From a virus (taxonomy: Duplodnaviria; Caudoviricetes), in the IMG/VR virus record IMGVR_UViG_3300031867_000027, positions 1-64,000 of that record: DNA of 64,000 nucleotides; one strand, written 5' to 3'. Position 1 is the stretch's first letter. Each line of letters starts with the position of its first letter. A program made the position numbers and the translations under genes. Positions 334 to 64,000 of the stretch are shown one piece after another. Under the pieces are notes generated by a model that saw nothing but the letters and a program-made list of their open reading frames with translations, was not told the origin of the DNA and did not search any database.

Positions 334-558
334 ATGCGCTTTGAAGTGATAAACAGCATAGGTAATACAGTCTTTTGGACAGAGCACTATAGTTGTATAC
401 CTTCCACGGAACATCTTACGCTTATGGCTAAAAATCAGTATAAATTCAGACTTGATGGTAAGAGTATATCTGCAAGTAGAATCTCTGAATTAACAGAATT
501 AACCCCAAGGTCAGATGTTCCTAAAGCAATCAAATCAACCACAAAGAAACTATTTTAA
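334..558 (+). CDS. Hypothetical protein ending in KKLF
   Basis: GAGGTG RBS; C-terminal KSTTKKLF shared with methyltransferases. Confidence 0.7.
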   Translation: MRFEVINSIGNTVFWTEHYSCIPSTEHLTLMAKNQYKFRLDGKSISASRISELTELTPRSDVPKAIKSTTKKLF

Positions 559-568
559 GGAGACAAGT

Positions 569-805
569 ATGAATAAGGAATTGTATTTAACAGTAACAAC
601 TTTTAGCGCAGCAGAATTTGAGGATGTATGCGCACTTGTAAAGGATTGGACATATATGCCGATAATGAAGTTTGAGTATCACAAATCTGATACTATAAGG
701 CAGATTGTTGCTATAAGCACTGATTTTGTCGAGATTACGAATATGTATAATCTGCTGATGCTTAAAGCTGATGCCGAGCTCTGCCTGCGGAATTATAAGG
801 TATGA
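569..805 (+). CDS. Hypothetical protein
   Basis: AAGGAG RBS before ATG 569; tightly packed operon. Confidence 0.65.
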   Translation: MNKELYLTVTTFSAAEFEDVCALVKDWTYMPIMKFEYHKSDTIRQIVAISTDFVEITNMYNLLMLKADAELCLRNYKV

Positions 806-1100
806 GGTGATATGTGTGGGAAATGATATAAACAAATTGAAAACTATACTGCTCTTCTCTCAGTATGCAGTACGTGACATCAATCAAGAGTTCAAAGATA
901 TAGGTACTTCAATACGATTAACATACCCTACGGAAACCAATGCTATAACTATAACCTTGAATAACAGCATCTGTGTCAGCCATAGTTTTATAGAGCTTGA
1001 TGATCACGGTAAAACTATAGTTGATAAGGCTTTCCGGAATTATGGATTAATACCGATATTCTATAAAGGATCAATAGGAGTTGAAGTGGACAATGATTAA
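771..1100 (+). CDS. Hypothetical protein (true start probably near 816)
   Basis: ORF fills the operon gap; GAGGTG RBS near 804. Confidence 0.55.
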   Translation: MPSSACGIIRYEVICVGNDINKLKTILLFSQYAVRDINQEFKDIGTSIRLTYPTETNAITITLNNSICVSHSFIELDDHGKTIVDKAFRNYGLIPIFYKGSIGVEVDND

Positions 1101-1416
1101 ATCAAAGAGTACAACGAAGTGTTCTGAATATGCAGATATTCATTCAGAGATACAAGAGATTCTATGCAATGTGAAGCTGGCCGCTGAGGGTGTCACTGAG
1201 CAGAACAATAACCTTTTTATGACCGGGTATCAGGTTGGGTATAATGATGCATATGAACTGCTTATGGAGCAGAGTTATCTTCTTATTCAAATGATATCTA
1301 TAGTAAAACGTGTGGAGTCTACATTAGGCTGTCATCTGATAGATGATGAACTTGCAGCAAGCATAACTAAGATTCTGGGAGATTATGACTATGGAGAAAC
1401 AGATTATAACGTATAA
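1093..1416 (+). CDS. Hypothetical protein
   Basis: ORF in packed operon. Confidence 0.6.
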   Translation: MIKSKSTTKCSEYADIHSEIQEILCNVKLAAEGVTEQNNNLFMTGYQVGYNDAYELLMEQSYLLIQMISIVKRVESTLGCHLIDDELAASITKILGDYDYGETDYNV

Positions 1417-1666
1417 ATTCGCTAAGAGATTAAGAATTCTTATGGCTATGAATGATCACGATAATTCAGCAGTCGCTAAGTTACTGAACTGCAATACTGC
1501 AAGAGTAACAAATCTCCGGTGTGCAGCAACGTGTCCAAAGGATAGTGAGCTCAAAAGACTCTGTGAGTTCTATGAAGTACCTATTGAGTTTTTGTACGGA
1601 GATAAGCCGTTTACAATAACACAGGAAGTAAACAACGGTTCCTCTGTATCGTGGGATTGTGACTAA
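1385..1666 (+). CDS. XRE-family helix-turn-helix protein
   Basis: FAKRLRILM...VAKLL...LKRLCEFYEVPIEFLYG pattern. Confidence 0.75.
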   Translation: MTMEKQIITYKFAKRLRILMAMNDHDNSAVAKLLNCNTARVTNLRCAATCPKDSELKRLCEFYEVPIEFLYGDKPFTITQEVNNGSSVSWDCD

Positions 1667-1682
1667 TAGAAAGGGAGAAGCT

Positions 1683-3542
1683 ATGTTTTACGCTATTCAA
1701 GATGGTGATGTATACAACCTCAAATTCAAGTATGATCCGGATTTAATAGCAATGATAAAGAACGTACCGGGTAGGAAGTATATACCGGATGGTAAGTATT
1801 GGACCATACCCAGTTCACATTTGGGTTTCTTAATGAATGAAGTCAAAGGTACACCGTATGAACAAGCTTTACAAATTCAGTCTGATGAGATGATAAATCA
1901 GAATGCTACCCTTGATTCTACATCTGAAATCCCCGATATAGACATTTCCGACATTGATATTTACGTCAAGAATGGATTTAAGCTTTACAATCACCAGCTT
2001 GCATTCTTAAAGTACGCAAAGGCTAAAGAACGTAAAGGCTTTATATTAGCGGATGACCCCGGCTGTGGAAAGACTCTTGAAGTGATTAACTATGCTCTAT
2101 ACCAACGCAAGAAGTATGGGTATAAACATTGTCTCATCATAGCTTGTGTTAATGTAGCTAAGTATTCTTGGCAGGATGATATAGCAAAGCATACCAACGG
2201 TCAGGAAGAGGGCTATATCCTCGGTACAAGGTTGGTTACAAGAGGGAAGCGTAAGGGTCAGATTAAGTACAATGTTAAGGGTTCAGATAAAGTTGACGAT
2301 ATAAGAAACGGGCATATGTACGGTGATGAATCTGCTCCGGAGCTGCCATTCTTCCTCATCGTCAACATAGAATCTTTGCGCATAAAATCCGGTAAGAAAT
2401 ATCTGCTTGAAGAAGCGATTATAGATATGATTAATGCGGGATCATTGCCTATGATTGTAATAGATGAATGTCATAAGAATATGAGTCCACAGGCTACACA
2501 GGGTAAGCTCATACTTGATATAAAAAGACGTACCGATAAAGCTGTCCAGTGGATTCCAATGACAGGTACACCCATCAGAAATAAGCCTATTGATGTATTT
2601 ACTCCGTTGAAGTTAGTGGATGGTCACAGCATACGCAGTTTCTATGAGTGGTCTCATCAGTTCTGCATCTATGGTGGATTCGGTGGTTATGAGATATTGG
2701 CATATAAGAACATACCAATACTTAAAGAAATGTTGCACGGAAATATGATACGCAGAAAGAAGTCAGAAGTATTGGATCTGCCACCTATAGTATACATAAC
2801 TGAGTATGTCGAGAATACACCATATCAGAATATGCTATATGAAGCGATAGCAGAAGAGCTATATGAGAATCGAGATGAAATTCTTAATTCAGCAAATCCA
2901 CTGTCACGTATGCTCCGGCTCAGACAGGTAAACGGTAGTCCGGAACTGATTGATAATGATGTGATAACACCGAGAATCAAGGAACTTATAGCTAAGGTAG
3001 ATGATGCTTACCTTGTACAATATAATGCCAAGGTTGCAAGGTTGATGGAGCTTGTAGATGATATTGTTGAGCGTGGGGAAAAGGTTATTGTATTCTCCAA
3101 TTGGGTAGAACCGCTCAGAACGATATATAAATTCGTATCAAAACGTCATAAGACTTGCTGTTATACAGGTACGATGTCTGAATCTGATAGAGAAAAGCAC
3201 AAGAGAGTTTTTCAGAATAACCCAGAGTATAAAGTGATACTCGGTACAATTGGTGCTCTTGGTGTGTCTGCTACACTTACAGCTGCTACAAATGTTATCT
3301 TCTTTGATGACTGCTGGACACCTGATGATAAGAAGCAGGCCTATGATCGTTGCTATCGTGTGGGTACAACACAGTCTGTATTTGTATACACCTTGATTTC
3401 CAAGGGTACTATAGATGAGTATGTCAATCAGATTCTTGAAAACAAGAAAGCTATATCGGATTTCATTGTGGATAATAAGCTTGACCTTAAAAAGAATCCG
3501 GAGTTATTCAACTTCTTGTTAGGTATGGGGAATCGGAAATGA
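1683..3542 (+). CDS. SNF2-family DEAD/H helicase with N-terminal HARP-like domain
   Basis: LADDPGCGKT Walker A, IDECH, MTGTP, QAYDRCYRVG motif VI. Confidence 0.92.
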   Translation: MFYAIQDGDVYNLKFKYDPDLIAMIKNVPGRKYIPDGKYWTIPSSHLGFLMNEVKGTPYEQALQIQSDEMINQNATLDSTSEIPDIDISDIDIYVKNGFKLYNHQLAFLKYAKAKERKGFILADDPGCGKTLEVINYALYQRKKYGYKHCLIIACVNVAKYSWQDDIAKHTNGQEEGYILGTRLVTRGKRKGQIKYNVKGSDKVDDIRNGHMYGDESAPELPFFLIVNIESLRIKSGKKYLLEEAIIDMINAGSLPMIVIDECHKNMSPQATQGKLILDIKRRTDKAVQWIPMTGTPIRNKPIDVFTPLKLVDGHSIRSFYEWSHQFCIYGGFGGYEILAYKNIPILKEMLHGNMIRRKKSEVLDLPPIVYITEYVENTPYQNMLYEAIAEELYENRDEILNSANPLSRMLRLRQVNGSPELIDNDVITPRIKELIAKVDDAYLVQYNAKVARLMELVDDIVERGEKVIVFSNWVEPLRTIYKFVSKRHKTCCYTGTMSESDREKHKRVFQNNPEYKVILGTIGALGVSATLTAATNVIFFDDCWTPDDKKQAYDRCYRVGTTQSVFVYTLISKGTIDEYVNQILENKKAISDFIVDNKLDLKKNPELFNFLLGMGNRK

Positions 3543-3714
3543 GAATGACATTTGTGCATTTTGCCCTTTGAGTATAGATTTGCCCTATAGTCAAATACAA
3601 CCTCAAAAGTAATATTGCACAAAAACAACCAGTGGCTTGCACTGATATAGTTATATTATTAAAATATATCTAATTGCTCTTTTGCAGTATATTGGAGTTG
3701 ATTGATATATATAT

Positions 3715-3752
3715 AAACCTACGAGGTATAAACCTTGTAGGTTTTTTCTTTT
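3715..3752 (+). terminator. Rho-independent terminator
   Basis: aaacctacgaggt/accttgtaggttt plus T-run. Confidence 0.7.
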
Positions 3753-3809
3753 ATCTATAGAAACAATCGTTATTATATATAGGATATGATAATGTGGTCA
3801 TAGCCGGAT

Positions 3810-3820
3810 AACCTTATATA
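3810..3820 (+). promoter_or_regulatory. Phage class-B (putative late) promoter motif AACCTTATATA
   Basis: Recurs at 11313, 14577, 16678, 17280, 26149, 41637, 46107, 61226 (+) and 48675 (-), upstream of genes. Confidence 0.75.
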
Positions 3821-3857
3821 TCAGAGATTAATATACCCTGATAGTGAGGTGTCAATT

Positions 3858-4073
3858 ATGAAACGATATATTAAGGCAACATCAGAGATGAGTGAAGCAC
3901 TCGATACCGCTCTTGATGAGCTCAGTTCAGACTTTGAATATATCATAGATGGTCTGAAGAAACTCAGTAGAACAAGCACAGATAAGGACAAGGAAGCTTT
4001 GTCTATCGCATTGAATCTGAGTTCAGCACTTGCATCTACGATTGATGATATATCAAATTCAATTACAGAATAA
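3858..4073 (+). CDS. Small MKRYI-leader protein (putative virion cargo)
   Basis: Starts MKRYIKATS; GAGGTG RBS; follows class-B promoter. Confidence 0.7.
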   Translation: MKRYIKATSEMSEALDTALDELSSDFEYIIDGLKKLSRTSTDKDKEALSIALNLSSALASTIDDISNSITE

Positions 4074-4088
4074 GGAGTGATTATAACT

Positions 4089-8630: not shown

Positions 8631-8712
8631 TGTGAATACACTATCTCCTCAGCAGGGTACATCAGTATTCTGTTGAGGAGAAAGGTGAATATATAAATGA
8701 GATGATTATATT

Positions 8713-10407: not shown

Positions 10408-10422
10408 GGAGGAATAATCAAT

Positions 10423-11169: not shown

Positions 11170-11194
11170 TACAATCATATTGGAATGACACATA

Positions 11195-11231: not shown

Positions 11232-11245
11232 GTGTAAAATGTATA

Positions 11246-12821: not shown

Positions 12822-12822
12822 T

Positions 12823-26678: not shown

Positions 26679-26874
26679 TTTCATAAAAATTGAAATTATC
26701 AATCGTTATTATAGGTAGAAGGGAGTATAGATTCACCTCCTACTCCTTTTAACTATATATGCCTGATAATCAGGCTGATCTGGTTGCTTCATCAGGAAGA
26801 ATAGCTTGAACTTGTAATACTTTAGTAAAGCAGAAGCGAAGATGAACTTCTCCTTATGTTCTACTTTTATCTTA

Positions 26875-27036
26875 GGGAAGTGCAGATGTAGTATTCAATT
26901 GTTTCTTAATGGTGCGTTTGTCAGAATACCCACCTAATTTGTGAAGTTCAATGAATCAGATTACCTTATTTACACACTTTTTGCTTCAACTTACAGTGTG
27001 TTTGTATCAGAATCAGGTATTAACATCTGCACTCCC
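26875..27036 (+). ncRNA. Putative long-stem ncRNA preceding tRNA-Gln
   Basis: Ends pair: gggaagtgcagatgt / acatctgcactccc; no credible ORF. Confidence 0.45.
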
Positions 27037-27054
27037 ACACCTCTTTTATTATAT

Positions 27055-27129
27055 TGGAGTGTAGCCAAGTGGTAAGGCAACAGACTTTGACTCTGTGATG
27101 CGTGGGTTCAAATCCCGCTGCTCCAACCA
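27055..27129 (+). tRNA. tRNA-Gln(TTG)
   Basis: Full cloverleaf, acaga-CT TTG AC-tctgt, TTCAAAT T-loop, encoded CCA. Confidence 0.93.
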
Positions 27130-28275
27130 ATAAGCCGCAGTCTTTAGGGGCGGAGAACAGATATGACTGCTAAGCTGTTCTGCCAAGCGTACACGGCATA
27201 TAGTGAACGGTATAAACGTTGTGGTGTTCAAGCAGTACGTAAAGTAGCAACGTGACGGCTCGGAGAGACGAGTTTATAGACAAGGTGATTAGCTATCAAC
27301 TCACTATACTATCAAAGAGGGTATGCAGCTTGACAATTCGGAATAGACGAATGAATTGCGCCATTATTGTCCGCTTTAACAATGAATTGTGCAATTTGGT
27401 CGCATACAACCAACGTGTATGCAGGGTTTATTATGCTGTTAGAACCTATACCCTACATCCGGTAAACAGCGTTTAGTGTTTTGTACGTCAACAATCCGGA
27501 AAACTATCCCGACAGAAGTGGCCAATTGTTTGGTAGTAACCAAGCGGTGATAACAACGAAACTGCCTGACAGCTCGGAAAGACGGGCATATATGTAACAG
27601 CAGCGCGGCGATATGACGTGCATTCACTTCAAGGGCTTATAGGCCGTCTGCTCTTGAAGGACTGCCAGTAGGGGAGGGACCTACCTGTTGCACCAACGGG
27701 GTTGATAGCAAATATCCACAGACCCAGTGATACGAAGTAAATATGCTGGTAGCAAGTAGAAACCCAAAGTACACAGGTTTAGAACGTATCGGCTGAAAAG
27801 TATCAGGCCAATAATGTGGGATGAGCAGCTTGGGGGTGACTTCAAACCCCACAGATATGTAACAGTATAAGGTAAACTCCTATCCTGTTGCACCAAAGGC
27901 CATCTCATTGTGCGGAGAGCCAAGAAAACTAAATGCGCACAAGTATATGCAGATGATCGGTAGCCAATCCGGAAGTCTGCGATAGCTTTGTTAAGCGAAG
28001 GGCAAAGCAGGATCTGCAAGGATTACCGGAGTCCTCCATAGATGAGTAGCATACTGTGGTTAAAGACCTCCGTTGGTTGTGAGGAAATCCGGTGTAGGTG
28101 ATAGTGTACGGTACCCATAAGCTGTGCAGTCATCGAACTATGTAATGATATGGGCGTTGGAGTGTATGAACTCAGCATCTACGTGAACGGTGCATCACAG
28201 TGATATTGGTTCAGCAGTCACCCAACATCGCTGTAAAACTGCAACAGCCGCAGGTATTCTCCAACTCTGCGGCTA
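27130..28275 (+). ncRNA. Structured non-coding RNA region (multiple elements, family not identified)
   Basis: Many nested stems, a pseudoknot, CCA-ended tRNA-like units; no ORF with RBS; flanked by tRNAs. Confidence 0.6.
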
Positions 28276-28276
28276 T

Positions 28277-28351
28277 CGAGGACGTGGTGTATTTGGTAAC
28301 ACACCTGTTTTGGGGACAGGAATAGCGGTTCGAGTCCGACGTTTTCGACCA
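28277..28351 (+). tRNA. tRNA-Pro(TGG), slightly atypical acceptor/T stems
   Basis: cctgt-TT TGG GG-acagg, TTCGAGT T-loop, CCA. Confidence 0.85.
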
Positions 28352-28427
28352 TAGGCAGCTCTACCTGCCGAAACACATTCTCCCGTGTTGATAGGTGCGG
28401 AGTTTGACCCATTACTCTGCACCAAAT

Positions 28428-28511
28428 GGCAAATTGCATTTAAGCAAATCAGTGTGATGCCCCCAACACTATTACTACTGATTCTCAGTGGGATTCTGGG
28501 ATTTGCCACCA
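28428..28511 (+). ncRNA. tRNA-like element with ACCA end
   Basis: 7-bp ggcaaat/atttgcc stem + ACCA; 5-bp/7-nt T-like arm lacking TTC. Confidence 0.5.
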
Positions 28512-37609: not shown

Positions 37610-39577
37610 TTGGCTGAAAAACTGACTATAGGTAGTCTCTTTTCCGGTATAGGTGGATTTGAGTATGTAGCATCACTATACGGAATAGAGCCTATATGGG
37701 CTTCTGAGATTGAAGATGCTCCTATACGTATCACTAAAAGACACTTCCCCAAGATGAAACATTATGGGGATATTACGAAGATGAATGGTGCAGAGATTGA
37801 ACCTGTTGATATCATTTCCGGGGGGTCACCCTGTACCGATCTATCCGTGGCCGGAAAACAAGAAGGTATAAGCCGTAAATGCTCTGCCTGCGGAATGGTT
37901 CTCCCATTGAACTTTTCAGAAAATCTGTGTCCTAAATGTGGAGCGGAAATAGAGTTTACACGCAGCGGTCTGTTTATGGAGCAGATCAGAATAATAAAAG
38001 AAATGAGGAAAGCTACAAATGAACGGTTTCCAAAAGTTATTATCTGGGAAAATGTTCCCGGAGCTCTCGGATCAAACAACGGAGATGACTTCCAATGTGT
38101 CCTCAGCGAATTCGTTGGATTATTTGGAGAAAAACTACCAACGCTTAGACCTGAGAAGTGGTGTAAAGCAGGGGAGATTGTGGGAGACAACGGTTCCCTC
38201 GCTTGGAGAACTCTCGATGCTCAATATTGGGGAGTACCCCAGCGAAGAAAGAGAATCTACCTTGTCGTCGATCTTACAGGACAACGTGCCGGAGAAATAC
38301 TATTTAAGTCAGAAAGCTTGCGAAGGCATACTCCGCAGGGCGAAATCCCGTGGAAAAGAACTTCCGGAGCGGTTAAGAGTAGCATTGGAACAGCAGATAG
38401 AACAGGCAAAGCAGAATCCGGAGAAGTAGAATCTTGTGTTGTACTTAATGATCAGGGTGGTTCAGTAATGGATGTTACTGAGGGTAAAACCGGAACACTA
38501 AGAGCTGAAACTCACGGTCACGCACCTGTGGTAGTAGATGATGTTGATAGAACAGTATATGGTATATGCTCTCTTGGATCTAACTGTATGAAGTCAGATA
38601 ATCCGGATAGCGGATTCTACGAAGCAGATATAATTAAGACTTTGGATACTTCCGGTGCTAACCCTTCTTGTAATCAGGGTGGCAATGTGATAGTTGAAAC
38701 TCCGGTGTACTGTATGCAAGGGAACTGCATAGACAGAGGCATTAAATCCGGTTGTAACGGTAAAGGTTGGGGTGAAGATGTATGCTTTACGTTGACCACA
38801 GCTGACCGACACGCTGTAGCTTATAGTGTGTCAGAAAATGGATCACAGGAAGTACGTATTACAAAAGAAGTAGCAGCTACACTTACAACAGGGGGTGGAA
38901 AACCCGGTCAGGGTTATCCTTGCGTGTTAGAAGAGAACGAATCTCAATGCGGAGCTTTCCTTGGCAAGCAGAGTGATTCTGCAAGAGGTATCGGTTATTC
39001 TGAAAAGGTGTCTCCTACTTTAGTTGCTGGAGAACCCCCACAAGTTGCTGAGTATGATAAGCATAGTATGGCGTTTTCATATCAGATGGGTCCGGGTGTA
39101 CCATATCTTCCTTGTAGCGATGAACTCTCCCCAACGTTAGTATCGAGTCAACATATAGGTGTGCTCATCGACAATCACGGTCAAGATTGTAGATGGAAAG
39201 AGTGCAAAGATGGCATATGCCCTACATTATCCGCTAATATGGGTATGGGTGGTAATAATCAGCCATTATATGTAGAGCCTACTATCGCTGCAAGTAAAGC
39301 ATCTTTCTTCACAAGAGCATCAGAGAATGATGTAGCGGAATGTTTGGTGGCTACAGATTACAAAGACCCTCAGATTGTACTTAGGCCTAATAGTATTGTT
39401 CGTAGACTTACACCATTGGAGTGTACCAGACTTCAAGGTTTCCCAGACGGTTGGGTAGATGGTGAATCTGATGCAGCTCAAAACAAAGCATTAGGAAACT
39501 CAGTTGCATTACCTTGTGTTGACTATGTGATGAGCGGTGTGGTTGATGTTCTTGATCCGATAGTAGAGGGTGATTAA
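37610..39577 (+). CDS. Large DNA cytosine-C5 methyltransferase with expanded variable region
   Basis: SLFSGIGG, GGSPC, WENVPG, PQRRKRI, RRLTPLECTRLQGFP, LGNSV; repeated TLxA segments. Confidence 0.93.
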   Translation: MAEKLTIGSLFSGIGGFEYVASLYGIEPIWASEIEDAPIRITKRHFPKMKHYGDITKMNGAEIEPVDIISGGSPCTDLSVAGKQEGISRKCSACGMVLPLNFSENLCPKCGAEIEFTRSGLFMEQIRIIKEMRKATNERFPKVIIWENVPGALGSNNGDDFQCVLSEFVGLFGEKLPTLRPEKWCKAGEIVGDNGSLAWRTLDAQYWGVPQRRKRIYLVVDLTGQRAGEILFKSESLRRHTPQGEIPWKRTSGAVKSSIGTADRTGKAESGEVESCVVLNDQGGSVMDVTEGKTGTLRAETHGHAPVVVDDVDRTVYGICSLGSNCMKSDNPDSGFYEADIIKTLDTSGANPSCNQGGNVIVETPVYCMQGNCIDRGIKSGCNGKGWGEDVCFTLTTADRHAVAYSVSENGSQEVRITKEVAATLTTGGGKPGQGYPCVLEENESQCGAFLGKQSDSARGIGYSEKVSPTLVAGEPPQVAEYDKHSMAFSYQMGPGVPYLPCSDELSPTLVSSQHIGVLIDNHGQDCRWKECKDGICPTLSANMGMGGNNQPLYVEPTIAASKASFFTRASENDVAECLVATDYKDPQIVLRPNSIVRRLTPLECTRLQGFPDGWVDGESDAAQNKALGNSVALPCVDYVMSGVVDVLDPIVEGD

Positions 39578-39618: not shown

Positions 39619-41367
39619 TTATGTACTGTAGATGGATACATAGTATGTTAAATCGAATCTATGATGCCTCTTACGTATGGAATTCCTTTGATAAGAGAAT
39701 TGTTGTTGTGGAATCATTAGATGTTTAATGGTTTCAGAACAACGATATTCTTTTCCATAGGTCATTGATGATGTTTCCCCATTTTTAAGTATTATATCTA
39801 TATTCATTGAGTTATCATTTACAGAGGAGACTTCTATCTTGTATATAGCCTCCTTGATAAGAGAATCTATACAATCCTTTGATATAAGCTCATCAGCATC
39901 ACTATGTATCTTTAATATGGTATTTCTTATGTTTTTTACAGATTTCAGCTCTTGTTCGATTGTTGTATCTGATGATTCATAGACTTGTAATTGTTCTGTC
40001 AGAACGCTCAGTGCAGAATCAAGTTCGTTGTTTTTGAGGTTGAAGTCAGCTTTCGATATATCATCATCCATATACAGGTCTAATAACCTTGCTTTTCTTT
40101 CGTGAATTCTTTGGATTTGCTGATTCAGTTTAGAGATTTCAGCTTTGTGATCCGGTACAGTCTTTTTGTATAGTTCTATGAATTCATCTATGTATTTGTC
40201 CATATTACCAATTAAATTTTTGAACATATCTGAAAGGATGCCGTACAGTTCCCATTCCATAATGGCAAATGATTTACAAGACTTAGCTCCTGATTTCTTT
40301 TTGGAACTGCATACCCACTGATATGTGGTATTTCCTTTTTGAACACTATTAGAATATGATGTTCTCCAATATGCTGATCCATCTGCGGCACAGTATATTT
40401 TTCCAGTCAGCGGTGATCTGTCTTTGAATGATCTGCCGTGATTTTTTATAGCTTCACTACGTTCTTTGAATATTTTATCACATTTATTCCATAATTCTTC
40501 TGGAACAATAGCCGGAACAGTTTCACCGGATTCATCTTTGTAATAAACCCATTCTTCTTCCGGAAGGAATTTCTGCTGCTTAGTACGATAGTCAACAATT
40601 CTTACCTTATTACCACAATAATATCCCTTATACTTTGGATTCTGCAAGATGCCGCAGATGGTATTAGGTGATATATCCGTACCACTCCGGCTTTTGTATC
40701 CTTTCTCTTTAAGCACATTAGCTATCTTTCGGGTGCTGTAATCTCCGGTAGCATACAAGCTGTATATCAGCCGTATCATTTCAGCTTCTTTTTCTACGAT
40801 GGTGAGCTTACAATCCTCTTTATTGTAGCCATACAACCGATTATTACCCATCACTCTACCGCTTTCGATAGAGCGTTTCTGCCCCCAATGAACACGCTCT
40901 GAGAGCTTTCTGACTTCATCAGCAGCGATACTTGACATTATAGTAAGTCTTAGTTCGCTATCAGTATCAATAGTGCAGATACCATCATTCTGAAAGTACA
41001 CACCGACACCGGAACGAAGTAATTCTCTTGTATAGGTAAGGCTGTCTATTGTGTTTCGTGCAAATCTTGATACTTCTTTTGTAAGTATCAAATCAAACTG
41101 ACCAGCTTTACCGTCAGCAATCATATTTAAGAAGTTTTCTCTATTACTTGCTGATTCTCCACGGATTCGGTCAACATATCCATCAACAAAAGTCCAATTA
41201 GGATTATTCTGAATCATATCAGTGAAAAACTCAATCTGATGTTCAATAGATCCTTCTTGTTCTTCTCTTGTAGTGGATACACGGGCATAAAATGTGACCC
41301 TAAGTTCTATATCGTGGATTGTTTTGTGCTGCATTTTTAGCATATTTGCAACGCTGTATATATCCAT
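39619..41367 (-). CDS. Large serine recombinase (integrase)
   Basis: YARVST, KEVSRFARN, recombinase domain, zinc ribbon, coiled coil; sigmaA promoter at 41417-41389. Confidence 0.92.
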   Translation of the reverse strand: MDIYSVANMLKMQHKTIHDIELRVTFYARVSTTREEQEGSIEHQIEFFTDMIQNNPNWTFVDGYVDRIRGESASNRENFLNMIADGKAGQFDLILTKEVSRFARNTIDSLTYTRELLRSGVGVYFQNDGICTIDTDSELRLTIMSSIAADEVRKLSERVHWGQKRSIESGRVMGNNRLYGYNKEDCKLTIVEKEAEMIRLIYSLYATGDYSTRKIANVLKEKGYKSRSGTDISPNTICGILQNPKYKGYYCGNKVRIVDYRTKQQKFLPEEEWVYYKDESGETVPAIVPEELWNKCDKIFKERSEAIKNHGRSFKDRSPLTGKIYCAADGSAYWRTSYSNSVQKGNTTYQWVCSSKKKSGAKSCKSFAIMEWELYGILSDMFKNLIGNMDKYIDEFIELYKKTVPDHKAEISKLNQQIQRIHERKARLLDLYMDDDISKADFNLKNNELDSALSVLTEQLQVYESSDTTIEQELKSVKNIRNTILKIHSDADELISKDCIDSLIKEAIYKIEVSSVNDNSMNIDIILKNGETSSMTYGKEYRCSETIKHLMIPQQQFSYQRNSIRKRHHRFDLTYYVSIYST

Positions 41368-41479
41368 ATGTATCATCTCCCACATTAAACTATATCATAC
41401 CGTTACCGCATTGTCAATATCTACATAATAATTTTTCTGATTTAGCAATCGTTATAAGTAGTAGAAGAGGTGATGCTAC

Positions 41480-57614: not shown

Positions 57615-57926
57615 ATGAATATTATGGATAATGAGTATTCAAATGAGTTTGATAAGCTCCGTAGGAATCGTGTAGAGGTCAGCTATTACAAATACGGTCC
57701 TGTACGAGATAACTTTGCATCCGGTAGGGTTGATGCTATCGGTAGTCTTGAACTCTGCCTTGAGAAGTTCAAAAAGACCCACAATACGGAGTACCTGCTC
57801 GACGTTGCTAATTATGCTATGTTTAGATATATGTACCCTTTACCCGGTGAGTTCTTCAAACAAACTGATAGTTCTGAAAGTGCAGGTACTATTGGTACGC
57901 CTATCAATATGGAGCGTGATTATTAA
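57615..57926 (+). CDS. Hypothetical protein, possibly nucleotide pyrophosphohydrolase-like
   Basis: EYLLDVANYAMF helical motif. Confidence 0.5.
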   Translation: MNIMDNEYSNEFDKLRRNRVEVSYYKYGPVRDNFASGRVDAIGSLELCLEKFKKTHNTEYLLDVANYAMFRYMYPLPGEFFKQTDSSESAGTIGTPINMERDY

Positions 57927-58252
57927 TGACAAATACTGTGTTGATTAAGTGGGATACCGGAGAGCTGGAATTAGATATGACCTGCTTCATTGATGATATG
58001 CCTGATAAATTTAAGTGTGAACGTATAGCTACTTTAGCGAAGGAATCCGATAGAAATTATGGTACATCTGTTGTTCCGGAACTACAACGGTACTGTTCTG
58101 ACTTCATACAGAATATGGATCATATTTATACGGATAAAAGAGCAACGACTAAGTGGAAGAAACAAATTAAGCAATTCACAGCTTTTCTGCTTGAACCCTT
58201 ACCTCAGCCGAAACCACAGATTGTAAAGCTTAAATCTATACGGTTGTTCTGA
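57926..58252 (+). CDS. Hypothetical protein ending KSIRLF
   Basis: TAATG coupling; shared C-terminal tail. Confidence 0.6.
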   Translation: MTNTVLIKWDTGELELDMTCFIDDMPDKFKCERIATLAKESDRNYGTSVVPELQRYCSDFIQNMDHIYTDKRATTKWKKQIKQFTAFLLEPLPQPKPQIVKLKSIRLF

Positions 58253-58258
58253 AAGAAG

Positions 58259-58534
58259 GTGGTCTGTGTGGATATTAATGTGAACGGATCTGATTTTGGA
58301 GCAGTAGTCAATTGTGCTGTAAGATATGCTGTCGGTAGAGCTACCTATATGCCTCATCTTGTAGTGGATTTTATAACTCCGATACTGTCAGAACTTGATG
58401 ATACTACATTATTTGTTATGCGTAGGGATATTGAAGAATCAGATAGTTTAGGTGATCCGAGGATAGATGCTCCGAAATGGAGAAAGCTTTTGCTTGACAT
58501 TAATCTTGAATTATTGCATCAAGCAAAAAAGTGA
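58259..58534 (+). CDS. Hypothetical phage protein
   Basis: CAVRYAVGRATYMP motif; operon position. Confidence 0.6.
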   Translation: MVCVDINVNGSDFGAVVNCAVRYAVGRATYMPHLVVDFITPILSELDDTTLFVMRRDIEESDSLGDPRIDAPKWRKLLLDINLELLHQAKK

Positions 58535-58623
58535 AATCATCAATCGTTATTATATATAGCAGCAGATACAATTGCTGTTATCATATCAAAATTACTAACA
58601 TATCGAAAGGAAAGTGATTAATT

Positions 58624-59322
58624 ATGGCATTTAAGAGTGTCGCAGAAATCAAGGCTACAAAGTATGATGGTAAGTTCATACTTGAAAACGATGGGGATTA
58701 TGCTGATGTAATATTCCTCTATCGTTCTGCTGAGGAGGTCGTAGCCGCAGATGTTCACTACATCAAGTCCTCTGATTACAATGGATATGTACACTGTCTT
58801 GGTAATGGCTGTCCTGCTTGTCTTAAGAACATCAGAACTCAGACAAAAATGTTCGTACCGCTGTATGTTCGGTCATTGAATGGTAATCCTGTAAATGAAC
58901 TTCAGTTCTGGGATAGAACATTGAAGTTTGAACCACAGCTTCAGACAGATCTCTTTAAGAAGGTACCGAAGCCCTCAGAGTATGTCTGCCGCATTACAAG
59001 AAATGGAGTTCACGGTGATGTCAACACACGCTACGCTATAACTCTTGTTGCTAATAACAAGGATATGCCTTATGACAAGGTTATGTCTGACAATAATACC
59101 AAGTTCCCGGACTTCTATGAGCATATCTGCAAGGAAGTTGATGCAGTTGTTCTGAATGCTTGGCTTGCTAACAGTGAGGGTGCATCCGTGAATACAGCTC
59201 TTCCTGACTATGTGGCTACACCCAGAGTAAGCGCAGCCGTAGCTCCGGTAGAAGTACCTGCTTCTGTTGAACTTCCTAATACGGATACGGATGAGATTAC
59301 AGAAGAAGTAGACTTTGATTAA
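58624..59322 (+). CDS. Single-stranded DNA-binding protein (gp32-like)
   Basis: VHY...C...CPAC zinc site, ITRNG..G..TRY, acidic tail EEVDFD; next to polymerase. Confidence 0.65.
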   Translation: MAFKSVAEIKATKYDGKFILENDGDYADVIFLYRSAEEVVAADVHYIKSSDYNGYVHCLGNGCPACLKNIRTQTKMFVPLYVRSLNGNPVNELQFWDRTLKFEPQLQTDLFKKVPKPSEYVCRITRNGVHGDVNTRYAITLVANNKDMPYDKVMSDNNTKFPDFYEHICKEVDAVVLNAWLANSEGASVNTALPDYVATPRVSAAVAPVEVPASVELPNTDTDEITEEVDFD

Positions 59323-59392
59323 TTAACAAAATCCCACTACATAATAGTATATCCACTACTTGTAGTGGGATTTCATTATTACAGGGAAGGTG

Positions 59393-62300
59393 ATGACAAT
59401 GGGGCTTTTTAGTAAAGTCCAAATGGAACAGATAAACGCAGCCGCAAAGAAGTGTACGCAGGTCACTGAGCCTAAGAAGAAGAAAACCAGCGCAAAATTC
59501 ATCAACTCAAAGGTAGATGCTATGTCTGCTAAGGTTATTGAGCACTTCAAAGACTCAACTGCGGAACTGATAACATCGGTAGACCAACTTCACGATTATA
59601 TCACCAAAATGTGTGAAGCTGGGATAGGTGCTATAGATACCGAGACTACCGGCCTTGACAGAATACAGGATACTATTGTGGGTGTATCACTATATTATCC
59701 CTGTGGTGTTGAGTGCTACATTCCCATAAAGCATATCATTCCTATATTTGAAGAGCCATATAAGGATCAGCTTACATATGAGCAGGTCGGAATAGAATTA
59801 CAAAGGTTAGTAGATAGTAAATGCAAACTTATATTTGCAAATGCGGACTTTGACCTTGCAATGATATTCAAAGACCTCAAGGTAGATCTGATTCCGGTAT
59901 GCTTTTATGATGTTATTTTGGCGTGGCGTTGTATCAAAGAGAACGAGAAGGATAATTCTCTTAAAGGTCTGTATACAAAGTATGTTGTCAAGGGTGCTAT
60001 AGATAGGATGAAGTTCTCAGATTTCTTTACACCCGAATTGTTCCCATACTGCAAACCCTCAGTTGCAAAGCTCTATGCCGCTGCTGATGCTAAGTATACA
60101 TATGATCTTTTTGTATGGCAGTTACCTTATCTTCAGAAAGACAATCCTAAGTGTCAGAAGCATCATCTTGAAGCGATTGCTGACCTTGTATGGGGGTTGG
60201 AACTGCCGCTTATAGCAGTTACACAGAATATGCATCGGAGAGGTGTGTATCTGGAATCATCGGTAGCAGATATGCTTAATGTGAAGTATAAGGCTTTGCT
60301 TGCTAAAGAACAGAGCGATATACAGGATAGCTTGAAGTCATATATGGATGATACTCAGTATTATACATCTGTGAAATGTCCATTTGGCGACTATAGCAAC
60401 TTCAACCCTAATAGCACTCAACACGTTCAGTGGGTTGTTTATGATTTGCTGAAACTTGACAGTAAGGGTAATGGCAGAAGCACCGATAAGGACGTATTAG
60501 GTCAGTTTAGTACACCTATAATCAAGCAGATACTTCATTATCGTAGTTTAGTTACCCTTATAGGTACATTTGTAGAAAAGCTGCCAATTGTTGCTGATTC
60601 AACACCTGATCACAAAATTCACTGTGAATTTAAGCAGGCAGGAACCGATACCGGCCGATATTCTTCACGGGATCCTAATATGCAGAACATACCTTCTCGA
60701 CAAGGCGATATCCGTAGAATGTTTAGAGCAACACCGGGATATGTAATGATGTCCTCAGACTACAGTTGACTGTTGGCGGTAGTCTTTAATCTAAACTCGG
60801 CTAATTCGATGAAAGCCTTGGGATTGTTTATTGGTTCACGCCCAAGTGTCAATATCGAGCAAGGCAGAGTAAAATCTGCCGTGTGGAGAGACTATCAAAA
60901 GCTATAAATTCTCCGTTTAGAGAAATCTATAAATACTGCCGATACGCATATTGGACGTATGTATGCGGTAGGGAGAGTTGAGAATAAGGCAGTAGCGATA
61001 CTGCACGAAGCAAGTAGAGTACAGCTCATATTGAGTTAGTGTATAGATGATATTAGTCTATTGTAAATCTATTAAATGGAAACACCGAGTACATTGTGTG
61101 AGTGGTAACAGCTTTACAGTGTAAAGAGTTAGTCCGATCCCTATGGTAACATAGGAAATCAACGATAACCTGTTGGATAATAACTTGTTGAATAATAACC
61201 TGTTGTGAGTTATCTTGTTGCATTTAACCTTATATGTATATTGAGGTGATGCTATATGGTTATATATACCATAACAAACAAGATTAACGGAAAAAAGTAT
61301 GTAGGTCGTACAGTGATGTCTATAAATTTACGTATAGATGGTCACAGAGCCGCATACAATCAGGGTGTACGCTATAAGTTGTATGATGCTGTGCGAGAAG
61401 CAGGTGGTTGGTATAACTTTGAGGTTGAAGTTATTGATTCATCTGCTAAAACCGAAGAAGAGTTGAATGCACTTGAAGCGTATTACATTGAGAAGTTTGA
61501 CTCCATTAACAATGGATATAATATGATTCCGGGTGGAGATTATAACCCAATGGATTACCCTGAGATTTCTGAAAAGCACGATGCAAAAATGCGAACACCC
61601 AAAGTACGAAATCAGATATCTGAATCTATGACAAATTATCGTAAGGATCATCCGTTCGATTATAAGCATAGGGTGGGTATTTCTGAGAATAAACGGAGTT
61701 TTTATGCATCAGAAGCAGGTCAGGCACTTTTAGCAAAACAAAAAGCTGATCATGATGCTAAAAGGAAGATATTGCAGGAACAAGGCAAGAAACCTTCAAA
61801 TAAACGCAGCGTGTATTGTGTAGATGAATCCGGCAATATAGTTGCAAAATTTCAATCTATGCAGGAAGCTGCTCGATGGTGGGATTCGATTAATAAAGTA
61901 TGTACAACCTTAGATGGCTATACCTCTAAGATTAGGCGTTCTTGTCAACAGAATAAGTATTATCACGGGTTAAAATGGCAATACGAATAATATTGTTAAT
62001 TGATTTAATCAGAACAACAAGAACCTAAACTAACAGCATATGTATCGCAAGAACCCAAAATGATAGATACATTCAAGAAGGGTAAGGATATATATGCTAC
62101 CATTGGATCTATTGCATTCAATGTTCCCTATGAGGACTGTTTAGAGTTTCATCCGGTAACACATGAGTATCAGCCAGAGGGTAAACTCAGGAGAACAAGA
62201 AGCAAACCAATGGTATTGGGTAGACCAAGTGTTTATGCCCCCTCAGTAGGTAGTCTTACAATAATAACTGCTGAGTGAAAATTTTGTGAACCCCATTACT

Positions 62301-63759
62301 CAGGGGTGTACAGTAGTATTACTGTGCTAACAGGGAAGCCTTATTATTAAGTTAAAGGTAATCCTGTGCCAAGTCTTTGAATCTCATATTTTTAATGAGG
62401 AGGTGATATATAATGGCTAAGACATTTAGAGTTTATATTATAACCAATACGGTTAATGATATGAAATATGTCGGTGTTACAAGTTAATCATTAAAAGAGC
62501 GATTTAGACAACATAAAGCGAGTGCTATGCTTAGATGTTCTAAAAGTCTTATACATCAAGCCAGTAGTACACATAAGATTTGTAAGGCATATGGTTATAC
62601 TTGGAGATTCAAAGAAAGGTCAATCGACTAATTATTAGGGTAGAAGATGAGTTGCTATCCGAAGCGCAAAAAACCCTTGTAAGACGGGGTTATGATATAG
62701 TCAGTGCCATTAGAAATAATGGAATAAACGATAAACTATGGGATGCAAGGTAAAGCCCTTGGTGAGAAGATATTCGGAGATGATGATTCCATATCTGAGG
62801 AAGAAAAGACTAAGCAGGCTAATAAGGTCTTTGATGCTGTAATGGCAGGATTTCCTGTGCTCAAACAAGCTATTGCAAATTGCAAAGCAAGAGCAAAGCA
62901 GATTGGCTATACCGAAACTATTCTCGGTAGACGTAGACATTTTCCTAACTTGCGAATGCCTCGCTTTGAGTTCAAAGCAGAGGATGGGTATATCAATCCG
63001 GATATAAACCCTCTTGATCCTACTACGCTTGATGCTAAAGATGATATTCCTGAGCGAATTCAGAAAGCCTTGTATAAGGAATTAGTATCTTATAAATACA
63101 ATGGTCAGGTATACAAGCGAATCAGACAGTTGCACGAACAGGAACACATAAAGGTGTTTAATAATTCATCTAAGATAGCAGAGTCTGAGAGAGAATCTTG
63201 GAATGCCGTAATACAAGGATCAGCGGCCGATCTTACAAAGATGGCTATGCTTAGACTTGAAACAGATCCGGAGTGGCAGGAGATAGGTGGTAGGCTTATA
63301 CTTCCTGTTCACGATGAGCTTATAGTTGAGGTACCCTTTGAGCATAGGGAGAAGGGTGCTGAGATATTAAAACGCTCAATGGAACAAGCCGGAAGTTTCT
63401 TACCATTCCCCATTAGCTGTGATATAGAAATGACCTTTAGATGGTATGGTTTAGAGGTAGATGATATACTGTCTTTCGATGCACCAACATCTATGGATTT
63501 TGATAATATGTCAGAATCAAATATCAAGTGGTTACAGAGTCGTTTATTTGAGCAGGGATATGTTATGCCTGTGTTTAAGAATGAGGATGGCTCTAAGCCT
63601 ATAGGTATCGCTGCTAAGGGTATCAACGGCAAGCTGTCAGATGAACTTAAATCTGCCTATGCAGATTATATACAGAAGTATGGTCTGACTTCTGATGAGC
63701 AGTTTATTCATCATATAGATACACTTGTATGTACAGGTATAGCTGAAAAACTGCAATAA
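59393..63759 (+). CDS. polA: Family A DNA polymerase split into three exons (59393-60766, 62015-62221, 62731-63759)
   Basis: DTETTGL exonuclease, TGRYSSRDPNMQNIP, DYS|QQEPK motif A, K..VLG|INYG motif B, IQGSAAD, VHDE motif C. Confidence 0.9.
61161..61220. repeat. 4 x 15-bp tandem repeat ending C(C/T)TGTTG
   Basis: aacgataacctgttg gataataacttgttg aataataacctgttg tgagttatcttgttg. Confidence 0.8.
61256..61990 (+). CDS. Intron-encoded GIY-YIG homing endonuclease
   Basis: VIYTITNKINGKKYVGRT...E..YI...NGYN. Confidence 0.9.
   Translation: MVIYTITNKINGKKYVGRTVMSINLRIDGHRAAYNQGVRYKLYDAVREAGGWYNFEVEVIDSSAKTEEELNALEAYYIEKFDSINNGYNMIPGGDYNPMDYPEISEKHDAKMRTPKVRNQISESMTNYRKDHPFDYKHRVGISENKRSFYASEAGQALLAKQKADHDAKRKILQEQGKKPSNKRSVYCVDESGNIVAKFQSMQEAARWWDSINKVCTTLDGYTSKIRRSCQQNKYYHGLKWQYE
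62222..62730 (+). mobile_element. Group I intron 2 in polA
   Basis: gggU pairs with gccc; P10 gtttat/ataaac; P7 tcgacta/tagtca; terminal G 62730. Confidence 0.88.
62413..62615 (+). pseudogene. Degenerate GIY-YIG endonuclease remnant in intron 2
   Basis: GAGGAGGTG RBS; MAKTFRVYIITNTVNDMKYVGVTS*SLKERFRQH...KAYGYTWRF with a stop and an internal deletion. Confidence 0.8.
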
Positions 63760-63825
63760 ACCAATCGTTATTATATGTGAGGGGGGTAGGATTACATCTA
63801 CCTCCCAGAAAGGAATTTGATAATT

Positions 63826-64000
63826 ATGAAGTTTACAGTATCAACAAAGCCACTCAAGGTAGCGGCTAACCTTGCTATCATCAAGGAAAATGTGTCAAAG
63901 CTCTATCAGAGATCTATTCTTTTGCAGCTCTCCGCTGATAAGACAGATCTCAGAATCAACACAGAGAGCAATTCTATCTTTTCAGAAGTAGTGCTCAAGG
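63826..64000 (+). CDS. Probable DNA sliding clamp (beta-clamp-like), truncated by window end
   Basis: MKFTVSTKPLKVAANLAI...LQLSADKTDLRINTE resembles the DnaN N-terminus; follows polA. Confidence 0.5.
   Translation, partial: MKFTVSTKPLKVAANLAIIKENVSKLYQRSILLQLSADKTDLRINTESNSIFSEVVLK

What the first reader, a model, noticed from the sequence alone, without database searches (positions are those of the whole stretch)
334..64000. Shared C-terminal [KR]LF tail on methyltransferases plus a probable phage beta-clamp: replication-coupled methylation?
Seen in sequence: C-termini KSTTKKLF (558), YKPKKLF (30286), PKSKKLF (30886), KVSRRLF (32202), SKSKRLF (33800), PKSKRLF (34446, beyond a TGA) and LKSIRLF (58252). 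These belong to three unrelated MTase families plus two unknown proteins, so the tail was added independently of the catalytic fold. PolA begins MGLF and the ligase-fragment protein begins MGSISLF. Established: clamp-binding motifs end in LF (QL[SD]LF), and 63826 resembles DnaN. Inference: a phage-specific clamp-docking peptide lets MTases methylate nascent DNA at the fork before host restriction acts.
Basis: partly seen in the sequence, partly recalled or inferred. Interest (0 to 1): 0.78.

Follow-up and report, generated by a model that had tools for sequence, protein, structure and literature searches.

The report
Clamp-docking LF tails on phage methyltransferases
In this 93-kb phage, several unrelated DNA methyltransferases end in the same short basic "…KKLF" peptide, which comparative evidence marks as this lineage's hook for the phage's own sliding clamp, so methylation is probably coupled to replication; binding itself has not been measured.

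Summary
Five ORFs end in [KR][KR]LF (0.0045 expected, P about 1e-14). A sixth ends IRLF, and a seventh tail lies behind a TGA that replaces a conserved Trp. The carriers are three methyltransferase (MTase) families and two small unknown proteins. Homologues in other phages stop just before the tail.

The gene at 63817 is a real DnaN-fold clamp (AF2 pLDDT 93, Foldseek E 7e-23), with clamp-loader genes downstream.

New support for clamp docking:
- The delta-like clamp-loader subunit carries RKKRLF internally, on a loop after a helix.
- The polymerase N-terminus is M-x-L-F across the clade and QxSLF in sister clades.
- In relatives the same tail sits on DpdA-like DNA transglycosylases and HNH endonucleases.
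- Among cultured-phage groups, DpdA ends in LF in 13 of 14 with a phage clamp and 0 of 3 without.
- Among 34 IMG/VR records with MTase homologues, the only tail-bearing one was one of two that encode a clamp.

Binding and replication-coupled methylation remain inferred. I found no published prokaryotic or phage precedent in the library searched. This scan has noted similar clamp tails on DpdA and MTases in other genomes. I class it as a new variant of a known kind: a clamp-binding motif with a basic flavour on new clients.

The parts
334..558 (+). 74-aa protein of unknown family ending ...KSTTKKLF
   Evidence: no Pfam or PHROG hit
29570..30286 (+). C5-type DNA methyltransferase (238 aa) ending ...YKPKKLF
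   Evidence: PF00145 E 3e-5 and phrog_757 E 2e-42. The orthologue in relative L223 ends ...YKSKRLF.
30296..30886 (+). phrog_799 DNA methyltransferase (196 aa, NPPY motif) ending ...PKSKKLF
   Evidence: phrog_799 E 7e-31; sequence
30903..31247 (+). Stand-alone NAD-ligase Ia-domain-like protein starting MGSISLF, an N-terminal SLF like that of the polymerases
   Evidence: phrog_6466 E 8e-30. The relative's orthologue starts MGSKSLF and carries PF22745 Nlig-Ia (weak).
31417..32202 (+). N6/N4 DNA methyltransferase (261 aa) ending ...KVSRRLF
   Evidence: PF01555 E 6e-26. GenBank phage homologues align only to about residue 253. 16 of the top 120 homologues carry ...[KRN][KR]LF on variable linkers.
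32202..32945 (+). Paralogous N6/N4 methyltransferase WITHOUT the tail (ends ...RILGNVE); an internal counter-example
   Evidence: PF01555 E 2e-32
33003..33800 (+). N6/N4 methyltransferase with a TAG at codon 8 (33024-33026) where the paralogue and the relative have Gln; ends ...SKSKRLF
   Evidence: The intact orthologue in L223 reads MSDVQLYQGDC...ESKSKRLF. PF01555 E 2e-33 on the part from 33144.
33814..34446 (+). phrog_799 methyltransferase with a TGA (34405-34407) at the family's conserved Trp; the frame continues ...IANDEPKSKRLF
   Evidence: phrog_799 E 3e-63
37610..39577 (+). Large C5 methyltransferase (655 aa) without the tail
   Evidence: PF00145 E 2e-41
57926..58252 (+). 108-aa unknown protein in the replication module, ending ...LKSIRLF
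   Evidence: Only near-identical homologues exist and they keep ...KPKSIRLF. The atlas search gave no usable lead.
59399..60769 (+). DNA polymerase A, N-terminal part (3'-5' exonuclease plus start of the polymerase domain); begins MGLFS
   Evidence: PF01612 and PF00476. The N-terminal M-x-L-F is conserved in about 40 of 45 related loci.
61256..61990 (+). GIY-YIG homing endonuclease gene that splits the polymerase gene
   Evidence: PF01541
62743..63759 (+). DNA polymerase A, C-terminal part
   Evidence: PF00476 E 1.5e-29
63817..64000 (+). Start of the phage beta-type sliding clamp. It runs on to genome position 64929 (370 aa; the probable start is the Met at 63826).
   Evidence: phrog_947 E 3e-9 and weak PF00712 / PF02768. 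AF2 pLDDT 93.4. Foldseek top hit is B. subtilis clamp 4tr6, E 7e-23, TM 0.74. pI 4.4.

Best explanation
[KR][KR]LF at the C-terminus is this phage lineage's version of the beta-clamp-binding motif. The idea is that the terminal Leu-Phe inserts into the hydrophobic cleft of the phage-encoded DnaN-type clamp, and that the preceding Lys/Arg residues complement the very acidic clamp (pI 4.4).

The peptide has been appended, through short variable linkers, to enzymes that act on newly made phage DNA. In this phage those are five or six methyltransferases from three families. In relatives they are DpdA-like 7-deazaguanine transglycosylases and HNH endonucleases. The polymerase uses an N-terminal M-x-L-F, and the delta-like clamp-loader subunit uses an internal RKKRLF.

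Clamps left on DNA behind the fork would then recruit the modification enzymes, so that phage DNA is modified soon after synthesis.

Shown here: the tails, their enrichment, their modular gain, the clamp fold, the motif in delta and in the polymerase, and the co-occurrence with phage clamps. Inferred: physical binding, which pocket is used, and the benefit against restriction.
For: 1. Enrichment is specific to the C-terminus.
2. The tail is an appendage. 73 phrog_799 homologues end ...WI(N) without it, and PF01555 homologues in GenBank phages align only to about residue 253 of 261.
3. The clamp is real, with a gamma/tau-like, a delta'-like and a delta-like clamp-loader gene downstream.
4. The delta-like subunit has ...SLMRKKRLFPLQP... 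at residues 59-65. The AF2 model places a helix at 52-60, this loop, then a strand at 70-75, and the best TM-score is to B. subtilis delta 3zh9. The column is conserved as [KR][KRHQ][LIM][IFLV]PL in 97 loci, and Flasso delta has TKGLF there. E. coli delta has ...QAMSLF ending at residue 74.
5. The polymerase N-terminus is M-x-L-F in the clade. It is QNSLF, QKSLF, QTSLF or TISLF in sister clades, and G[LMF]FW in Queuovirinae-like PolA and PolB alike.
6. In relatives with this clamp, all but one complete DpdA-like protein carries [KR]x[KR][KR]LF, and L316 and F317 are invariant. HNH endonucleases carry it too.
7. In cultured-phage groups, DpdA ends in (Q)xxLF in 13 of 14 with a phrog_947 clamp and 0 of 3 without, Fisher P 0.006.
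8. Blind test: of 34 IMG/VR records with PF01555 homologues, the single tail-bearing one (G073) was one of only two that encode a clamp, and G073 has a second tailed MTase. Of 38 records with tail-less phrog_799 homologues, 35 have no clamp.
9. In DpdA the motif tolerates 2-4 extra residues after LF (LFDL, LFSLPN), as an internal clamp motif would.
10. The published consensus is QL(S/D)LF at C-termini (PMC9690074). A PDB entry shows an Ac-LF dipeptide bound to the E. coli clamp (4k3l, title).
Against: - No binding or complex prediction could be run.
- The tail lacks the canonical Gln and is unusually basic.
- Two MTases in this window lack it, as do MTases in three clamp-encoding IMG/VR records (G061, G064, G065). 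The DpdA of Cellulophaga phi47:1 also lacks it although that phage has a clamp.
- Equivalence of the delta-like RKKRLF to E. coli delta L73/F74 rests on topology and on my recollection of the delta-beta structure. Sequence-profile methods did not align the two proteins.
- The co-occurrence counts are not phylogenetically independent and the negative controls are few.
Confidence: 0.68

Rival explanations
1. The tail docks on the host's DnaN clamp and not on the phage clamp. This would either recruit the enzymes to any replicating DNA or titrate the host clamp.
For: LF is the core of the bacterial clamp-binding motif (PMC9690074). Phage proteins that bind the host clamp through such motifs are known, for example MuC (10.1101/2025.01.04.631326).
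Against: Tails were found almost only in phages that encode their own clamp. The flavour of the motif differs by clamp clade: basic KKLF here, QxxLF in Queuovirinae-like phages, and NLF(G)E in G034. The phage's own delta-like subunit carries the same basic flavour.
Confidence: 0.12
2. The basic-hydrophobic tail binds another shared partner, or DNA itself. Candidates are the phage SSB, the helicase, or a non-specific DNA-affinity patch. In that case the resemblance to a clamp motif is superficial.
For: The tails are strongly basic ([KR]x[KR][KR]), which would favour contacts with DNA or with acidic tails. The SSB-like protein ends in an acidic ...EEVDFD.
Against: The invariant part is Leu-Phe and not the charge. 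Polymerase N-termini and sister-clade DpdA tails keep LF with no basic run (QVSLF, QMELF, QPELF). The association found is with clamp genes specifically.
Confidence: 0.1
3. The tail is a C-terminal degradation or remodelling tag, similar to the ClpX C-motif 2 (RRKKAI of MuA), that limits the lifetime of DNA-modifying and DNA-cutting enzymes.
For: A basic run followed by hydrophobic residues at the extreme C-terminus resembles that class of tag (this is my recollection; it was not tested). MTases and HNH nucleases can be toxic.
Against: Many DpdA orthologues carry 2-4 residues after LF, so a free terminal carboxylate is not required. The same LF motif occurs at the polymerase N-terminus and inside the delta-like subunit. 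The co-occurrence with clamp genes has no explanation under this reading.
Confidence: 0.05
4. The tails are a by-product of short-patch recombination among 3' ends of methyltransferase cassettes, or of chance, and have no function.
For: Three tails share the 14-nt string AGAGATTATTCTAA.
Against: P is about 1e-14 against chance. Codons differ synonymously in the other tails. Orthologues at 83% identity keep the tails. The motif is invariant in DpdA over 40-80% identity. It occurs on unrelated folds in distant phages.
Confidence: 0.02

Closest known systems
Bacterial beta-clamp-binding motif QL(S/D)LF and its clients (Pol II, Pol IV, Pol V, delta, MutS/MutL, Hda; PMC9690074)
   Same: A short linear peptide, often at the extreme C-terminus, ending in Leu-Phe. 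It occurs in a genome that encodes a DnaN-fold clamp. The polymerase and the delta-like clamp-loader subunit carry related LF motifs, and sister clades show canonical QxSLF.
   Different: There is no Gln; a run of Lys/Arg precedes LF instead. The clients are DNA methyltransferases, DpdA-like transglycosylases and HNH endonucleases, which the papers searched do not list as bacterial clamp partners. The clamp is phage-encoded and only 12-16% identical to bacterial clamps.
DNMT1-PCNA (PIP-box-mediated recruitment of the maintenance methyltransferase to replicated DNA; cited in PMC9690074)
   Same: The logic is the same: a DNA methyltransferase tethered to the sliding clamp, so that methylation follows replication.
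   Different: It belongs to a different domain of life, uses a different clamp (PCNA trimer against a beta-type dimer), a different motif (Qxx[IL]xxFF) and a different MTase architecture. The purpose here is presumably protection from restriction and not epigenetic inheritance.
C-terminal gp45-binding peptides of T4/RB69 gp43, gp33 and gp55
   Same: A phage-encoded clamp is used as a hub by several phage proteins through short terminal hydrophobic peptides.
   Different: T4 uses a PCNA-like trimeric gp45 and acidic/hydrophobic tails on polymerase and transcription factors. Here the clamp is DnaN-like, the tails are basic, and the clients are DNA-modifying enzymes.
Phage DpdA 7-deazaguanine DNA transglycosylases (Hutinet 2019, PMC6884629)
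   Same: The relatives' tail-bearing 320-340-aa proteins match phrog_887 and sit beside FolE/QueC/D/E genes. DpdA proteins of 9g, a Seuratvirus (SeppeHuegi), PaMx25 and MS1 also end in ...LF and lie next to a clamp gene.
   Different: This window has no DpdA homologue; methyltransferases bear the tail instead. The DpdA paper does not mention a clamp or a C-terminal motif.

Membership tests
Beta-clamp-binding-motif (CBM) clients | Short linear motif with the hydrophobic Leu-Phe core of QL(S/D)LF | tested here: met
   LF is terminal in 7 tails and invariant in 15 aligned DpdA-like proteins.
Beta-clamp-binding-motif (CBM) clients | Conserved Gln at motif position 1 | tested here: not met
   The tails read [PS]K[ST][KR][KR]LF with no Gln. 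Sister clades do have QxxLF or QxSLF.
Beta-clamp-binding-motif (CBM) clients | Motif lies outside the folded catalytic domain, at a terminus or in a loop | tested here: met
   Pfam domains end 20-30 residues before the C-terminus. Homologues without the tail stop just before it. Linker lengths vary. Disorder itself was not modelled.
Beta-clamp-binding-motif (CBM) clients | A cognate beta-type clamp is present | tested here: met
   Genome 63817-64929: AF2 plus Foldseek.
Beta-clamp-binding-motif (CBM) clients | Peptide binds the hydrophobic cleft between clamp domains II and III | not testable with these tools
   Complex prediction of the clamp with a peptide is not available here. The family's most conserved segment, VGDxxNSLFT, aligns with the B. 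subtilis TATDSHRLA strand. By my recollection that strand lines the cleft.
DnaN / beta sliding clamp | Three-domain beta-clamp fold of about 370 aa | tested here: met
   pLDDT 93.4, pTM 0.88. The top 50 Foldseek hits are all bacterial beta clamps, E about 1e-20 to 1e-23, TM 0.69-0.75.
DnaN / beta sliding clamp | Sequence membership in Pfam DNA_pol3_beta families at the gathering threshold | tested here: not met
   PF00712 scores 21.2 bits (cut-off 24.4) and PF02768 scores 20.1 bits (cut-off 27). The protein is a member of phrog_947.
DnaN / beta sliding clamp | Accompanying clamp loader | tested here: met
   Gamma/tau-like (PF13177, PF22608, PF12169), delta'-like and delta-like genes.
ClpX C-motif-2-type degron | Must be at the free C-terminus | tested here: not met
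   Many DpdA orthologues extend 2-4 residues beyond LF. LF motifs also occur at the N-terminus and internally.

The most novel reading that the evidence does not exclude
Phages that encode their own beta-type clamp have turned it into a general landing pad for DNA-modification enzymes. Methyltransferases of several folds, DpdA base-exchange enzymes and homing endonucleases each acquire a lineage-specific LF peptide that co-evolves with the clamp. Self-protective modification would then be mechanistically coupled to replication, making this a prokaryotic-virus counterpart of DNMT1-PCNA that arose many times independently.
Probability: 0.5. Interest if true: 0.85.

Novelty: new variant of a known kind. 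Interest (0 to 1): 0.72.

Why it matters
How phages get every new genome copy modified before host restriction enzymes find it is an open practical question. A portable clamp-docking peptide would give a simple physical answer and a testable handle: delete seven residues, then measure methylation kinetics and plating efficiency. It would add DNA methyltransferases, DpdA transglycosylases and homing endonucleases to the list of bacterial-type clamp clients. It would also supply a sequence signature (terminal LF plus a phage clamp) for finding DNA-modifying enzymes among phage proteins of unknown function, such as the 74-aa, 108-aa and 283-aa proteins seen here. Finally, it may explain the recurrent FolE-DpdA-clamp-polymerase gene order in Queuovirinae and other phages.

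Tried and rejected
- **Close relatives in GenBank phages and IMG/VR.** Megablast of the MTase cluster and tblastn of the clamp found nothing in GenBank phages, and the single-sequence scan of IMG/VR for the clamp found nothing. A clamp alignment was needed.
- **Stop-codon recoding for the two interrupted MTases.** Rejected. Genome-wide stop usage is ordinary (TAA 64, TGA 50, TAG 12). The only tRNAs are Gln-UUG, Pro-UGG and Leu-CAA, and 58252 itself ends in TGA. Both interruptions are single transitions, CAG to TAG and TGG to TGA.
- **Aligning the delta-like subunit to E. coli delta at residue level.** A profile search of PDB sequences, hhalign and hmmsearch all failed. Only fold and topology support the equivalence.
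- **Identifying the 108-aa tail-bearing protein.** Only near-identical homologues exist, and the atlas gave no usable lead.
- **Covariation test in the three phages whose polymerase starts MGFW.** Their 20-kb loci hold no DpdA. MTases elsewhere in one of them (G034) end in NLF(G)E.
- **IMG/VR scan with P0126.** It found nothing.
- **A DNA-level palindrome or terminator explanation of KKLF codons.** Rejected because the codons vary.
Full report
**What the window is.** The window is the first 64 kb of a single-contig 92,751-bp phage genome. It has about 39% G+C, nearly all genes lie on the + strand, and stop-codon usage is ordinary. No close relative exists in GenBank phages. Metagenomic relatives do exist.

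**The observation.** Five ORFs end in [KR][KR]LF:
- 334-558
- 29570-30286
- 30296-30886
- 31417-32202
- 33144-33800

One more ORF (57926-58252) ends IRLF. A seventh tail, PKSKRLF, lies in frame 13 codons beyond a TGA at 34405-34407.

With 126 ORFs, 0.0045 such ends are expected (Poisson P 1.5e-14). Shuffling the last 20 residues 20,000 times never gave more than one. Internal occurrences of the motif are at chance level. Codons for K, R, L and F differ among the tails, so the peptide is what is conserved, not a DNA element.

The carriers are:
- a C5-type MTase (PF00145 / phrog_757);
- two phrog_799 MTases;
- two PF01555 N6/N4 MTases;
- two small proteins with no family hit.

Two further MTases in the window lack the tail: 32202-32945 and the 655-aa C5 enzyme at 37610-39577.

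**The tail is an appendage.** All 73 IMG/VR homologues of the phrog_799 enzyme end ...WEKGxxGxPxIxWI(N)-stop with no LF tail. In the window gene, the TGA sits exactly at that conserved Trp, followed by I-ANDE-PKSKRLF. GenBank phage homologues of the PF01555 enzyme align only to about residue 253 of 261. Among its 120 best homologues in the large protein collection, 16 end in ...[KRN][KR]LF on linkers of different length and sequence, while others 75-79% identical lack it. This pattern indicates repeated gain and loss.

A relative at 83% identity (L223/L224) keeps the tail on four MTases. One of them is an intact orthologue (MSDVQLYQGDC...ESKSKRLF) of the window gene at 33003-33800, which here carries a TAG at codon 8 (33024-33026). 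So two adjacent MTase genes in this genome each carry one nonsense transition. Recoding is excluded by normal stop usage and by the absence of suppressor tRNAs.

**The clamp.** The ORF at 63817 continues to 64929 (370 aa). Pfam hits are below threshold, but it matches phrog_947, "DNA polymerase processivity factor". An AF2 model built on 40 homologues has pLDDT 93.4. Its best PDB matches are all bacterial beta clamps (B. subtilis 4tr6, E 7e-23, TM 0.74). It is very acidic, with pI 4.4. Downstream lie a Cas4-like nuclease, a gamma/tau-like ATPase, a RecA-like protein, and delta-like and delta'-like subunits. The polymerase is a family-A enzyme split by a GIY-YIG endonuclease gene.

**Evidence that LF is the clamp hook in this lineage.**

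1. *Clamp-loader subunit.* The only biologically placed internal [KR][KR]LF in the genome is in the delta-like clamp-loader subunit...EVISLMRKKRLFPLQPKVYV, residues 59-65.
   - The AF2 model (pLDDT 89) puts a helix at 52-60, this loop, then a strand at 70-75. The fold matches clamp-loader subunits, with the highest TM-score to B. subtilis delta.
   - The column is conserved as [KR][KRHQ][LIM][IFLV]PL in 97 related loci. Bacillus phage Flasso's annotated delta has TKGLF there.
   - E. coli delta reads ...FSLCQAMSLF ending at residue 74. From my memory of the delta-beta structure, L73/F74 are the residues that plug the clamp cleft. Profile methods could not align the two proteins, so this equivalence is a topological argument only.

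2. *Polymerase N-terminus.* It is M-x-L-F-[ST] in about 40 of 45 related loci. In sister clades it reads MFQNSLF, MSQKSLF, MAKQTSLF, MPTISLF or MPLFN. In Queuovirinae-like phages both PolA and PolB enzymes start MRxDAxG[LMF]FW. The QxSLF forms match the published consensus QL(S/D)LF (PMC9690074).

3. *Other clients in relatives.* In phages with this clamp family, a 320-340-aa phrog_887 protein (DpdA-like 7-deazaguanine transglycosylase) lies about 7 kb downstream of the clamp. It carries [KR]x[KR][KR]LF in all complete copies but one (that one reads RRFLT), either terminal or followed by 2-4 residues. L and F are invariant. HNH/NUMOD4 endonucleases and a 283-aa protein next to GTP cyclohydrolase I carry the same tail. 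This window has no DpdA homologue; its MTases bear the tail instead.

**Co-occurrence tests.**

*DpdA in cultured-phage groups.* DpdA ends in (Q)xxLF in 13 of 14 groups whose genome encodes a phrog_947 clamp:

| Phage | DpdA C-terminus |
|---|---|
| Flasso | QGKLF |
| PSTCR4 | VQELF |
| PaMx25 | IQELF |
| RHph_Y55 | EQRLF |
| SeppeHuegi | VMELF |
| ply2008005c | QMELF |
| VspDsh_1 | IQGLF |
| vB_VhaS-tm | TQGLF |
| Me-ZS1 | QPELF |
| 9g | LQDLFDE |
| HD01 | AQELF |
| MS1 | QNRLF |
| R5C | QVSLF |

The exception is Cellulophaga phi47:1, where the overlapping ParB-like gene ends SVNLF instead. DpdA ends in LF in 0 of 3 groups without a clamp (Mufasa8, Cracklewink, Nadezda). See; Fisher P 0.006, not corrected for phylogeny. 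The gene order FolE-DpdA-clamp-polymerase recurs in these groups.

*MTases.* Of 38 IMG/VR records with tail-less phrog_799 homologues, only 3 encode a clamp. Of 34 records with PF01555 homologues, two encode a clamp:
- G073, which is the only record with a tailed MTase (...NNRKLF). It also has a second tailed MTase and a tailed 99-aa protein.
- a 379-kb record classed as a provirus.

Other clamp-clade genomes also have tailed MTases. G017 has ...SRKKLF. G034 has four ORFs ending YNLFE, YNLFGE, FNLFGEQ and PMALF, and its polymerase starts MGFW.

**Rival readings.**
- A host-clamp partner is possible. It is disfavoured by the restriction of tails to clamp-encoding phages and by the clade-specific flavours that the phage's own delta-like subunit shares.
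- A different partner, or simple DNA affinity, is disfavoured because LF is the invariant part and the charge is not.
- A degron is disfavoured because residues can follow LF and because the motif also occurs at N-termini and internally.
- Chance or recombination hitch-hiking is excluded by the statistics and the conservation.

**What is not shown.**
- No binding, complex model or enzymology was possible.
- Replication-coupled methylation and the race against restriction are inference.
- Counter-examples show the tail is not obligatory: untailed MTases in this window, and the clamp-encoding records G061, G064 and G065.

**Novelty.** Full-text searches found no report of a bacterial or phage DNA methyltransferase or DpdA binding a sliding clamp. 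The founding DpdA paper mentions neither a clamp nor a C-terminal motif (PMC6884629). DNMT1-PCNA is the known eukaryotic analogue (PMC9690074). Earlier agents of this scan reached similar readings on other genomes, for T4-like, jumbo and beta-clamp phages. Those are unchecked AI notes and I do not count them as evidence.

I class the finding as a new variant of a known kind.

Noticed in passing
window 33003-33800 and 33814-34446: Two adjacent methyltransferase genes each carry one in-frame nonsense codon at a conserved position: TAG at 33024-33026 for Gln, and TGA at 34405-34407 for Trp. Both are single transitions. The relative L223 has the first gene intact. This could be recent inactivation or leaky read-through; it is not recoding.
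   Followed up: yes
window 3858, 10423, 11852, 14635, 16118, 16750, 44621, 45157 (ORF starts): At least eight proteins, mostly in the structural-gene region, begin with the same N-terminal peptide MKRYI[KR] (one with MKRYK). A relative also has one (L223:15694, MKRYIHNRY). This may be a shared N-terminal targeting or processing signal, or a paralogue family.
   Followed up: no
window 59399-63759; L076, L235: The family-A polymerase gene is a hotspot for mobile elements. It is split by a GIY-YIG gene here, by an HNH gene in L076, and it carries an intein plus LAGLIDADG domain and a downstream GIY-YIG gene in L235.
   Followed up: partly
window 30903-31247: A stand-alone protein resembling the Ia (N-terminal) domain of NAD-dependent DNA ligase. 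Its N-terminal MGS[IK]SLF is conserved in the relative, so it may be another clamp client or a modulator of the host ligase.
   Followed up: partly
GenBank phages 9g, SeppeHuegi, PaMx25, HD01, Me-ZS1, ply2008005c, VspDsh_1, MS1 (loci L213-L232): The recurrent gene order FolE - DpdA - clamp (phrog_947) - DNA polymerase. DpdA ends in (Q)xxLF and the polymerase (PolA or PolB) starts MRxDAxG[LMF]FW.
   Followed up: partly
Cellulophaga phage phi47:1, L216:1198-2372: DpdA lacks an LF tail, but the overlapping ParB-like (DpdB-like?) gene ends ...SVNLF, and the phage has a clamp 2.5 kb away. The hook may sit on the partner protein.
   Followed up: partly
window 35630-36715 and 39619-41385(-): The orthologue of 35630-36715 in the relative L223 is tagged PF26125 AcrVA2-like, although my own Pfam scan of the window protein gave nothing. 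The orthologue of the minus-strand 588-aa ORF is a large serine recombinase, which hints at a temperate or integrative lifestyle.
   Followed up: no
window 26700-28900: A 2-kb stretch without long ORFs holds tRNA-Gln(UUG), tRNA-Pro(UGG) and tRNA-Leu(CAA). The rest of the stretch is unexplained.
   Followed up: no
Bacillus phage Flasso, W07 59918-61231 and 98298-98945: Besides DpdA, the DnaB-type helicase ends ...GGEELF and a 215-aa unknown protein ends ...VQKGLFG. Both are possible further clamp clients in a culturable phage.
   Followed up: no
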